From assembly GCF_964204645.1 (NCBI RefSeq), contig NC_134025.1, positions 4,464,001 to 4,528,000 of the forward strand: DNA of 64,000 bases, written 5' to 3'. The notes beneath the pieces are model-generated. The model saw only the letters and a program-made list of their open reading frames with translations. It was not told the DNA's origin and ran no database searches. Positions 39,155 to 42,100 of this stretch are shown one piece after another; within the stretch, counting starts at the first letter, position 1; each line of letters starts with the position of its first letter. Position numbers and translations under genes: made by a program. The stretch comes from Tubulanus polymorphus (taxonomy: Eukaryota; Animalia; Nemertea).

Positions 39155-42100
39155 TTAATCAGGAGATTTAAAATCACTTTCTCCGTATAAGGCAGTTGAA
39201 AATGATGAATAATCGAGTGCACCAGGTGCCGCGTCGCGGCCGCTATACGGAGCCATTCGTTGGATACAGTATTCAGCCTGGTCTGGTGGTAACTCTCGAC
39301 GCAGGATCTCAGCAGTAATGTGCGTCTGCAAGGAAATTTAATAACATGAAAAATCAATCGTATTCAAAATAGGAAAGAACTTCAAATCTACCGATTGAAT
39401 TGCAAATTAAAACATGACTGAATTAGATAAGTTTTCTAAATACCTTATCTCCGGCAAGAATTCTAAATGATTGCATGATTTGTTCAGCTGAGTCAGTGTC
39501 TGTCATTTCTCTTGTCATGAAGTCGAAGAAGGCATCAAATGATACAAATCCGGTGTTATTAGCATCGACGATAGCCATAATACGCTGGAAGTCAGCATCA
39601 CCCTGAATAGAAAATCGAAATTTACTTTGTTACAAAAAATGATTGTCACGAAATACTGTTTGATGAGAGTTTGCAGGATGCCATCTAATTAAGCATGGAG
39701 TATGATCAAAACTTAATTCGCATTAGTTGATAATAACATACCAGTTGATCATCACAAATATATCCAAGACTGACAAGACACTGTTTGAATTCTTTAGGAT
39801 CGAGTCGGCGAGAGCGATTCTTGTCAAAATGATTGAAGCTTGTTCGTAATTCAACCATTTGATCTTCAGTGATGCCCTTTGAGTCTCGTGTCAAAATCTG
39901 TGATAAATAGTTCGTTCATTTAGAGAAAACTTGCTATTTCATTGCAGCCTTCAGCGAGATACTGCTTTCAAGATGATCACTAAACATCTTCAATCACTTG
40001 AAGTTATATATAAATTGAATTTACCATGTTCTCCACTTCATTGCTGTTAAGCGCTATGGAGGTTAACAACTGCTCCCAACGAACTCGCAAAGTCTGGAAA
40101 AAATGAAGCAAAATTAATGTTCCACAAATCCTTCAGAACGTCTACTAACAAATCCTCTGCCCATGTCACATATTTCAAGCGTACAATATGACGCAGTTAG
40201 TCCACGCACGCTGAACATTAGTACGGAACTGATGGATAGGAATCCGCAGATTGAAATATTTGAACTCCTTACACTTCCAATGTTTACCACCTTCCAGCTA
40301 ATCAATTTGCTATTGAACTCCCGGTAGACATATCTGACGGGACTGCTGTACGATGAGTAGCTGTGTAAAGGAGCAATACTGAGAGTAATGGAGATCAGAT
40401 TTTATGTAATTGTCTAGAGAACATGGACTGAAAGCGAGTGTGTTCAACCCGTATTTCAACTGTAGAATTGAACACATTATCCCTTCTATCAGTCAAGTGC
40501 TCTATTCGGCTATAAATACATCGAAACTGATTTCAATAAATTACTTAACAACTAACTTTTTACCTTAATATACGCGATGAAAGACTTCAAAGGCAACTGA
40601 ACAGTTAGCTATGAAAGCGGAACTGAATGACCTATTTATACATAGAAATATAGGACAAATCATACCTCCATAGTGTAGGGAGTGTGACGGTTTTCAAATA
40701 TCATCGCTTCTTGAATTTCTTGATTATATCGCTCCAGTTCATCCATGTTCGGCTTGAGAGCATTAGCCTTAACTTGACATGCATTGAGTTCTTTCAGTTC
40801 ACCTTCCAGTGGGCCCTTCTGCATACCTGCAGCCATTACTTGTTCGTTAATACATTTGAGCCATTCTCCGACTGCGTTAGCTGTGCGGGCGAACTGTTTT
40901 CGAAGGCGTTCATTATTCTCCTGTCGAAGTGTAGCATCGAATTTCTGAGCCAAGTGATCTAACCGCTCGAGTCTATCAATTAAAACAATAAATAAACACA
41001 CAAACTCTAAATATATACATACATATGCTGTAACAGGTAAAATGTTTATTTACCTCTGTAATTCTGAGAGGAGCCATTCTTCGAAACCTTTCTCTGCACG
41101 TTCAAGTCCTTTCCATGCATTGGAAATATCCTTCAAAACAGAAAATGATTGCATAACTTCTGAAAACCTGACAAGCAACATAGAGACAATTTTCATTTAA
41201 CAACCAACTCACCCCAACCATCTTTCCTTCAGTTGGCAGGTAAACGGGCCTATTACTAAGTCGCAGCCTAGTTTGTAATGCGTTAAATGTTGTTTCTAGA
41301 TTGACTTTTTCTTCCAGTTTTGGTGGTTTTTGTTTGCGTCTGTATTCACGAAATTCATCCAGTTTGTCTCGTGTTCCCGGTAGCGTGTTGTCAGTTTGCC
41401 GGTTTTCTAACCAAGGTGTCGTCCTCATTATCCATTCCAATAGCTGAACAAAATCATCAAATTATCGTTAAAAAACTCATTTGAACTTTGACCTTTGCAA
41501 AAGATGCATCGATACTTACATCACTGGCCATTCTTTCATAGTCTTCCATTAATTTTTCTTTTTCTTGATTTACTTTTAATACTTTACAAATACGATTAGC
41601 AGCAGTTTTAGCCTGAAATATTGATAGAAATTTCATATAAAGGGTCATGGAAATTCACAAAGACCTGGCTTAATCAAATACAGGAAAATCTTTCATATTC
41701 TAGTTTCCATCAATTCTTTCACTGCGAGTACACATTCTGGTTCGAAAATTAATGCAACAGCCCGAGGGTGTAGTTTTCAATAACCCACCTTTACGCATAA
41801 AGAAAGCCCCAGGAGACTATTGATTTACTTTCAATATGAGGGAGAGTTTGAGTAAAATATGACAGGAAATGAGAAATACGAACCTGTTGAGCTCCTGAGA
41901 ACGCATGATAATAAGCAGATACGTAGGTCATAACAGATTTCTCATCAGGTTTCGGAGAATTGACGATATCTATAAAAGAAAGCCATCGATAAGAAAGAGC
42001 ATCAAGAAGAAGATGTGAAAGAATAATTGCGATATAATCAATGAATATATAAACCTTCAGCATCCAACATCCGTGGGATGTCGAGGTGTTTTTCAGCGAC

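What the first reader, a model, noticed from the sequence alone, without database searches (positions are those of the whole stretch)
40666..40972. Animal alpha-actinin with only two spectrin repeats (SR1 fused to SR4)
Seen: one contiguous exon reads [28 protein letters not shown], joining the start of SR2 directly to the SR3/SR4 linker at ~40925-40940. About 215 aa (SR2-SR3) are absent from the whole window and the frame is preserved. Known: animal alpha-actinins have four repeats pairing antiparallel (SR1-SR4, SR2-SR3), while two-repeat forms are known from fungi and Entamoeba and have been related to SR1/SR4. Inference: this deletion leaves a complementary SR1/SR4 pair that could still dimerise, giving a roughly half-length actin crosslinker, a secondary return to the short architecture.
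Basis: partly seen in the sequence, partly recalled or inferred. Interest (0 to 1): 0.85.

Follow-up and report, generated by a model that had tools for sequence, protein, structure and literature searches.

The report
Ribbon worm's shortened alpha-actinin duplicate
A ribbon worm has, besides its normal alpha-actinin (the protein that cross-links actin filaments), a fast-changing second copy that has lost the two middle rod repeats; this copy is likely transcribed and would likely make a shorter, weaker cross-linker like those of fungi and amoebae, unless it is already decaying.

Summary
The fusion is real. One exon (40972-40666, minus strand) joins the start of SR2 to the SR3/SR4 linker at 40939. 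It removes 216 codons in frame, plus 5 more at 40916. The junction is in the likely source run at single-copy depth. The gene is not the animal's only actinin: it matches RefSeq models of Tubulanus polymorphus, which also has an intact four-repeat gene. The short gene is a young duplicate of it, with a branch over ten times longer than the parent's. It looks relaxed but not dead: the frame is open, changes avoid conserved sites, spliced copy-specific contigs exist, and all 8 amino-acid changes between its two tandem actin-binding-domain copies fell on the upstream copy. Against function: dN/dS is 0.66-1.07 in SR4, 15 changes hit near-invariant sites, the C-terminus is altered, and no RNA contig spans the junction. 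The fusion is not clean. The inter-repeat spacing is 48 residues against 30 in natural two-repeat actinins, which is 18 extra, or five helical turns. An unnamed tunicate-like protein may be an independent case. Verdict: a new variant of a known kind; a working short cross-linker is about 45% likely.

The parts
55846..55962 (-). Coding exon 1 (start codon, acidic N-terminus); single copy, outside the tandem duplication
48591..55766 (-). Upstream tandem copy A of the actin-binding-domain, neck and early SR1 exons. Decaying: 8 amino-acid changes, a 30-nt loss in the neck exon, SR1 exon cut off at about 48590
47690..47924 (-). Copy B exon 2 (CH1)
46986..47072 (-). Copy B exon 3 (CH1 end)
44916..45003 (-). 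Copy B exon 4 (CH2 start)
43511..43589 (-). Copy B exon 5 (CH2)
42055..42136 (-). Copy B exon 6 (CH2)
41884..41969 (-). Copy B exon 7 (CH2 end)
41520..41612 (-). Exon 8 (neck)
41213..41443 (-). Exon 9 (SR1 helices A-B)
   Evidence: window-type contig in run X5 at 41214-41375
41054..41130 (-). Exon 10 (SR1 helix C)
40666..40972 (-). Fusion exon 11: SR2 stub, SR3/SR4 linker remnant, then most of SR4
40939..40939 (-). Break point of the 216-codon deletion; one base fits both sides
   Evidence: X6 loose ends on both sides of 40939
40916..40917 (-). Site of a second, 15-nt in-frame loss, between short imperfect direct repeats in the parent
   Evidence: tables 4 and 7; the repeat reading is my inference from those letters
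40025..40093 (-). Exon 12 (SR4 helix C); carries G720R and Q738M
39742..39897 (-). Exon 13 (EF-hand 1)
   Evidence: window-type spliced contig in X5
39444..39602 (-). Exon 14 (EF-hand 2 onward); an alternative acceptor at 39584 drops 6 residues
39155..39325 (-). Last exon (EF3-4); ends in ESDFKSPD where the parent ends in ESDL
36816..38648 (.). Downstream copy of a roughly 1.8-kb direct repeat (92-93% identical) that flanks the duplicate gene
60854..64000 (.). Upstream copy of the flanking direct repeat, interrupted by an insertion and running off the window

Best explanation
A young duplicate of the worm's four-repeat alpha-actinin gene has lost its two middle spectrin repeats in frame, and is likely kept under relaxed selection as a two-repeat protein that would likely pair head-to-tail (SR1 of each chain on SR4 of the other) into a shorter, weaker actin cross-linker working beside the intact one. 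Shown: the deletion, the intact paralog, the open 678-codon frame, the lopsided divergence. Inferred, in steps: (1) the whole gene with its first exon was copied and lies between two copies of a flanking repeat; (2) a blunt deletion between two coding positions removed SR2-SR3, tolerated because the parent still works; (3) a 15-nt slip shortened the linker from 53 to 48 residues, which is 18 more than natural two-repeat actinins and so in the same helical phase; (4) a later 7.2-kb tandem duplication added a second set of actin-binding-domain exons that is now decaying, so the likely working product uses exon 1 plus copy B, while the 918-aa RefSeq model uses both; (5) the dimer would rest on two SR1:SR4 pairs with the long linkers at its centre.
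For: Frame open over 678 codons with GT-AG at all 14 introns. With 46-67 neutral amino-acid-changing mutations, the chance of no stop is 0.01-0.05. Derived changes avoid conserved columns: 15 of 45 fall on columns at least 95% conserved among 104 four-repeat actinins, against 23.0 expected from random placement within the same exons, P 0.007. Between tandem copies A and B, 8 of 8 amino-acid differences (a ninth at the deletion edge set aside) are derived in A, and B keeps the parent's residue each time, sign test P 0.008. Run X5, which has spliced joints and so is read as RNA, holds window-type contigs at 41214-41375 (depth 12.2) and 39742-39884 with a copy-specific splice (14.8), against 35-41 for the parent. 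A third at CH1 (13.9) is deduced only from depth arithmetic. Window-type letters occur in about half the reads of an independent DNA run, X7. SR1 and SR4 are modelled as helical bundles at pLDDT about 80-93. Spacing from the SR1 helix-C Trp to the SR4 helix-A Phe is 48, against 30 in 12 of 13 short-rod comparison proteins, so 18 extra residues, phase 0. Two-repeat actinins dimerise in S. pombe (PMC4824898, abstract and passages) and in Entamoeba, with a strongest state at 33 pN (PMC11271494, passages and Discussion).
Against: dN/dS over the SR4 part of exon 11 is 0.66 to 1.07, depending on which differences are counted, on only 26-29 changes. A third of derived changes hit near-invariant columns (M126T, E260K, N276K, K643T, E652K, Q738M, F755L among them), against 1-11% in 5 of 5 ordinary orthologs tested. 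No window-type contig covers the fusion exon in X5 or X6; only the parent transcript was laid there. The one copy-specific EF-hand splice seen uses the acceptor that drops 6 conserved residues. The C-terminal ESDL is changed; its role as a PDZ ligand is recalled. Measured against the 32-residue animal linkers, the join is 160 degrees out of phase, and a phase match within 20 degrees arises for 1 in 6 lengths by chance. AlphaFold breaks the helix at the join (residues 639-646, pLDDT under 50 at 641-644; the alignment gap may cause this). A single human SR1:SR4 pair was unstable at 1 pN or more, and a human two-pair dimer was weak (PMC11271494).
Confidence: 0.45

Rival explanations
1. A transcribed but decaying duplicate: the copy was disabled by the deletion and drifts. 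The open frame is luck, helped by gene conversion from the parent and by in-frame slips between short repeats.
For: dN/dS 0.66-1.07 in SR4. Branch 0.104-0.11 against 0.003-0.008 for the parent. 47 of 59 differences are derived in the short copy, 10 in the parent. Near-invariant residues are changed and the C-terminus is altered. A further structural accident, the 7.2-kb tandem duplication, sits in the gene. Divergence is patchy: 29 differences in exon 11 but no amino-acid change in exons 4, 6, 7 and 10, which suggests conversion (inference). No junction contig in X5 or X6.
Against: Changes avoid conserved columns (P 0.003-0.007 at three thresholds). No stop among 59 changes. Copy B unchanged at 8 of 8 sites while copy A decays. 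All splice sites are intact.
Confidence: 0.3
2. A functional protein that is not a stable short cross-linker: a monomeric or loosely pairing actin-binding protein that competes with or decorates the normal actinin, or a four-CH form (the RefSeq model) that binds two filaments by itself.
For: The CH2 exons and most of SR1 are nearly unchanged while SR4 helices A-B carry 17 changes in 55 residues. A hinge is predicted at the join. Exon 8A can splice in frame to exon 2B (phases 0/0), and RefSeq models it so. Human SR1:SR4 pairs are weak (PMC11271494).
Against: Only 2 of the 17 SR4 patch changes fall on conserved columns. Copy A's CH1 has three non-conservative changes. No 8A-to-2B joint appeared among the 15 joints listed, though 431 were not shown.
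Confidence: 0.2
3. An artefact or an allele: a misassembly, or the other haplotype of the normal gene rather than a paralog.
For: X1 is probably the source run, and its contig has only 29 letters beyond the break. Window and parent letters are about 1:1 in X1, X2 and X7, which a heterozygote would also give. No single-copy baseline depth was measured and no whole genome was held.
Against: The junction lies inside a contig built from reads at depth 37.6. Window-type letters next to the break occur in another sample. RefSeq lists both genes on a contig of the same length, 32,063,560. 59 lopsided amino-acid differences are implausible for alleles of an essential gene (inference).
Confidence: 0.05

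Closest known systems
Four-repeat alpha-actinin of Tubulanus polymorphus (XP_074652757.1, P0123) and animal alpha-actinins generally (chicken 1SJJ, human ACTN2 4D1E)
   Same: Tandem CH domains, neck, SR1, SR4 and calmodulin-like domain; 615 of 674 aligned residues are identical to P0123; sister in all trees.
   Different: SR2-SR3 absent (Pfam finds 2 spectrin stretches against 4); 48-residue inter-repeat spacing against 32; fast divergence; altered C-terminus; duplicated actin-binding-domain exons.
Two-repeat alpha-actinins of fungi and amoebae (S. pombe Ain1, Entamoeba histolytica actinin-2, PDB 6SL2)
   Same: Domain order CH-CH-SR-SR-EF. The literature relates the two ancestral repeats to SR1 and SR4 (PMC9145010, passage). 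6SL2 is the best-ranked two-repeat hit of the model, rank 4 overall.
   Different: Not by descent: the short gene derives from an animal four-repeat gene. Its linker is 18 residues longer (48 against 30). Those proteins are shown dimers; this one has no bench data.
Unnamed JGI proteins P0134 (658 aa) and P0190 (720 aa)
   Same: Animal-like actinins with a short rod (262 and 272 residues against 271 here). P0134 is closest to tunicate-like actinins (64.5% identity).
   Different: Different junctions (spacing 38 and 42) and far longer branches. A common origin of P0134 with the window gene is rejected (p-AU 2e-5), but grouping P0134 with non-animal two-repeat forms is not rejected (p-AU 0.10). 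Each is a single unnamed contig.

Membership tests
Alpha-actinin | N-terminal tandem calponin-homology actin-binding domain | tested here: met
   Pfam CH, 4 stretches in the RefSeq model; two of them come from copy B
Alpha-actinin | Rod of spectrin repeats (one, two or four, per PMC8329775) | tested here: met
   Pfam Spectrin, 2 stretches; SR1 and SR4 by BLAST
Alpha-actinin | C-terminal calmodulin-like domain | tested here: met
   Pfam EF-hand and EFhand_Ca_insen above cut-off
Alpha-actinin | Antiparallel homodimer through the rod | not testable with these tools
   Needs bench measurement
Alpha-actinin | Cross-links F-actin | not testable with these tools
   Needs a bundling assay
Animal four-repeat alpha-actinin | Four spectrin repeats | tested here: not met
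   Parent residues 404-619 absent from the window
Animal four-repeat alpha-actinin | Descent from the animal clade | tested here: met
   Sister to P0123 inside lophotrochozoans, support 100
Fungal/amoebal two-repeat alpha-actinin | Two repeats related to SR1 and SR4 | tested here: met
Fungal/amoebal two-repeat alpha-actinin | 30-residue Trp-to-Phe spacing between the repeats (my own measure; 12 of 13 comparison proteins) | tested here: not met
   48 here
Fungal/amoebal two-repeat alpha-actinin | Shared descent with those proteins | tested here: not met
Pseudogene | Stops, frameshifts or broken splice sites in the main frame | tested here: not met
   0 internal stops and GT-AG at 14 of 14 introns in the exon 1 plus copy B model; only the last codons are shifted
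Pseudogene | Neutral evolution | tested here: inconclusive
   dN/dS 0.66-1.07 in SR4, but changes avoid conserved columns and spare copy B

The most novel reading that the evidence does not exclude
Animals repeatedly regenerate a working two-repeat alpha-actinin from spare gene copies by fusing SR1 to SR4. This worm's copy is a very young case, whose linker was re-phased by a second deletion to match the ancestral two-repeat geometry and whose SR4 surface is being re-tuned. Older independent cases would exist in tunicates (P0134) and perhaps hydrozoans (P0190). This would be a natural reversal of the rod expansion and would give animal cells a cross-linker of intermediate length.
Probability: 0.25. 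Interest if true: 0.75.

Novelty: new variant of a known kind. Interest (0 to 1): 0.5.

Why it matters
A paper I read states that all animal alpha-actinins have four repeats and treats a two-repeat form in a plant genome as possible fungal contamination (PMC8329775, passages). The ancestral form is held to be SR1 plus SR4 (PMC9145010, passage). This locus is a natural SR1-SR4 protein about 91% identical to a four-repeat parent in the same genome. It therefore offers a direct test of whether the two outer repeats can still dimerise alone, and of which linker length allows it (48, 53, 32 or 30). That holds even if the gene proves dispensable. If it works, it would set a shorter filament spacing than the 35-40 nm quoted for alpha-actinin bundles (bioRxiv 10.64898/2026.08.30.748082, passages). 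If it is decaying, it is an ordinary fate of a duplicate.

Tried and rejected
Homodimer prediction of P0121 residues 497-765: no verdict. Scores were 0.16 and 0.17 against a mark of 0.32, controls were not folded and the alignment was not used; it is not counted either way. No whole genome was held, so the parent's DNA, introns and position were not read directly. The run search listed no holder on record as RNA; X5 and X6 are read as RNA only from their spliced joints. X9 (labelled 'RNA?') gave 7 contigs, all under 90% alike; the long one shown carries 955 letters between 41212 and 40756, so it is a four-repeat-type transcript, and no junction form was seen. Whether the tandem duplication exists in X7 is unresolved: mean depth 13.3 over 14 repeat-free duplicated bins against 11.9 over 3 single bins, and 6 of 11 reads parent-type at 42150 (P 0.12 if two short copies are present). 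X1 shows doubling there (82.8 against 37-42). The single-sequence fold of P0134 was uninformative (pLDDT 43). A search with the P0190 rod found only itself among 1639 candidates. A search with the P0134 rod gave 111 hits and no further short-rod animal form. FastTree put P0134 near hydrozoans, while two IQ-TREE runs put it among tunicates. One full IQ-TREE run timed out. P0137 and P0202, animal-like with very short rods, were not examined. The two in-frame small deletions were not counted as evidence of selection: one lies between short repeats and a similar in-frame loss sits in decaying copy A. Earlier-scan look-ups by sequence and by words returned nothing. The Entamoeba structure paper PMC7486759 was not held.

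Full report
1. Observation. The exon at 40972-40666 (minus strand, 307 nt, AG...GT) is as described. Against solved actinins, its first 12 residues match the start of SR2 and residues 14-102 match SR4 (E 2.4e-16 to 1SJJ). The exon matches a RefSeq protein named alpha-actinin-like of Tubulanus polymorphus, a ribbon worm, at 100% (P0001), and that model maps exon by exon onto the window. A second cluster from the same species holds a normal 896-aa four-repeat actinin, P0123; both are listed on a contig of 32,063,560 bases. Parent residues 404-619 are missing from the whole window (best tblastn E 1.4).

2. The break. Parent-type contigs in run X6 leave the window sequence on both sides of 40939. 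One side continues into SR2 and the other comes from the end of SR3, with one base fitting both. This looks like a blunt deletion between two coding positions (inference; the parent's intron positions were not seen). A further 15 nt are missing at 40916. Run X1, probably the source, has a contig over 40727-40968 with no difference at depth 37.6, like parent-type contigs (38.6, 39); 29 letters lie beyond the break, two short of the tool's bar. In X7, another sample and study, about half the reads are window-type across the gene, 4 of 6 lack the parent letter at 40912 and at 40920, and 0 of 6 have the 15 nt. A misassembly is unlikely. A read-level bridge in an independent sample was not displayed.

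3. Gene anatomy. Exon 1 (55962-55846) is single. Exons 2-9 exist twice through a 7.2-kb tandem duplication (99.1% over 6239 bases and 95.4% over 974). Exon 1 plus the downstream copy B gives a 678-codon frame with no internal stop and GT-AG at 14 of 14 introns. The upstream copy A has a 30-nt loss in the neck exon and a cut-off SR1 exon. Of the amino-acid differences between A and B, 8 of 8 (a ninth at the deletion edge set aside) are derived in A (sign test P 0.008). RefSeq joins A to B into a 912- or 918-aa protein with four CH domains. Which product is made is unknown. X1 depth doubles where A and B are identical (82.8); in X7 the duplication could not be confirmed. The gene sits between two 92-93% identical non-coding repeats.

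4. Evolution. The short gene is sister to P0123 in three trees, with branches of 0.104-0.11 against 0.003-0.008. It differs at 59 of 674 aligned residues; 47 are derived in the short copy and 10 in the parent. Signs of relaxation: dN/dS in the SR4 part of exon 11 is 0.66 using all 29 differences in X5, 0.97 using the 26 also seen in X7, and 1.07 over the diverged patch alone. Fifteen of 45 derived changes hit columns at least 95% conserved among 104 four-repeat actinins, against 1-11% of differences in 5 ordinary orthologs. The terminal ESDL has become ESDFKSPD. Signs of remaining constraint: random placement within the same exons would put 23.0 changes on those columns (P 0.007; 0.003-0.007 at three thresholds); the chance of no stop under neutrality is 0.01-0.05; and copy B has been spared. 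Divergence is patchy, which suggests gene conversion from the parent and weakens all these tests (inference).

5. Expression. No run is on record as RNA. X5 shows joints at the gene's intron boundaries, so I read it as RNA. It has window-type contigs over SR1 (41214-41375, 1 difference, depth 12.2) and over EF-hand 1 with a splice to 39584 that only this copy's donor explains (3 differences in 143, depth 14.8), against 35-41 for parent-type contigs. A third over CH1 at depth 13.9 is deduced from bin arithmetic only. Neither X5 nor X6 (one sample) shows a window-type contig over the fusion exon. Contigs drop minor paths, so this is not proof of absence, but transcription of the junction itself is not shown.

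6. Structure. Pfam finds 2 spectrin stretches against 4 in the parent. AlphaFold2 with a 52-row alignment models both repeats at pLDDT about 80-93 and breaks the helix at residues 639-646, with pLDDT under 50 at 641-644. From the SR1 helix-C tryptophan to the next repeat's helix-A phenylalanine there are 32 residues in the parent's SR1-SR2 and SR3-SR4 links, 30 in 12 of 13 short-rod comparison proteins (7 named as fungi or amoeba-like protists, two of them from one species; the rest unnamed or not looked up), and 48 here. So the fusion is not clean. 48 is 30 plus 18, five helical turns; before the 15-nt loss it was 53, 140 degrees out of phase. Against 32 the present join is 160 degrees off, and 1 length in 6 would match within 20 degrees by chance. 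The phase match is a lead, not a result. The rod has 271 residues against 492.

7. Mechanism. Most likely (0.45) the copy is kept under relaxed selection as a two-repeat actinin that pairs SR1 on SR4 in antiparallel and cross-links actin more weakly and at shorter spacing than the parent. Precedent: S. pombe two-repeat actinin dimerises through its rod but cross-links less efficiently (PMC4824898, abstract and passages), and the Entamoeba two-repeat dimer has a state that resists 33 pN. Caution: a single human SR1:SR4 pair was unstable at 1 pN or more and the human SR2-SR3 two-pair dimer was weak (PMC11271494, passages and Discussion). Rivals are a transcribed, decaying duplicate (0.30), a functional protein that is not a stable short dimer, including the four-CH form (0.20), and an artefact or allele (0.05).

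8. Other cases. Of 395 proteins held, 300 had both end domains and 21 had rods under 300 residues. Besides the two window models, two are animal-like with two-repeat-sized rods: P0134 and P0190, each from one unnamed contig; two others with still shorter rods were not examined. P0134 falls among tunicates in two IQ-TREE runs (support 99) but near hydrozoans in FastTree. A shared origin with the window gene is rejected (p-AU 2e-5); a grouping with non-animal two-repeat forms is not (p-AU 0.10). No protein other than this gene's own models showed the same junction among the 120 listed of 220 hits or the best 150 representatives.

9. Literature and novelty. Eight library searches returned no paper whose listing or abstract describes a two-repeat animal actinin; searches returned none at all. 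The library lacks most subscription journals, including the two Virel and Backman papers, which I saw only as citations. PMC8329775 (passages) says animal actinins have four repeats and invertebrates mostly one gene. PMC9145010 (passage) relates the ancestral pair to SR1 and SR4. No supplements were read. The gene is already annotated by RefSeq as alpha-actinin-like, with no mention of the architecture in its name.

10. Verdict. Observation confirmed; interpretation partly supported. This is a new variant of a known kind: a secondarily shortened animal actinin in a young duplicate, with mixed signs of constraint.

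Noticed in passing
P0134 and P0190 (unnamed JGI proteins): Two further animal-like alpha-actinins with two-repeat-sized rods and their own junctions. P0134 looks tunicate-derived (7 of 15 ascidian-type diagnostic residues); P0190 is nearest to hydrozoans (46%) on a very long branch. Each is a single contig.
   Followed up: partly
window 41344-55766: A 7.2-kb tandem duplication (95-99% identical) makes RefSeq predict an actinin with four CH domains. The upstream copy is decaying, and its presence in the second DNA sample is unresolved.
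   Followed up: partly
window 36816-38648 and 60854-64000: Direct repeats about 92-93% identical, with no long frame, bracket the duplicate gene and may mark how it was inserted.
   Followed up: partly
window 45884-46987 and 48092-48643: Very high-copy repeats in introns (X7 depth up to about 15,600 and 1,400). The second has inverted arms at 48155-48360, like a miniature transposon. A 164-nt near-perfect palindrome lies at 57845-58008.
   Followed up: no
window about 3600-20000, minus strand: Exons that read like a Trio/Kalirin-type gene with spectrin-like repeats and a RhoGEF domain (the name is recalled, not tested). It is not the source of the missing repeats.
   Followed up: no
window 33108-33377 and 34306-36555, plus strand: An LSM-domain exon and a MOSC-domain gene (Pfam), convergent with the actinin copy. 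A weak CofH_C match at 30387-30701 is below cut-off.
   Followed up: no
short-rod proteins: Natural two-repeat actinins have an inter-repeat spacing two residues shorter (30) than the SR1-SR2 and SR3-SR4 linkers of four-repeat actinins (32), in 12 of 13 proteins; I did not search for this in print.
   Followed up: partly
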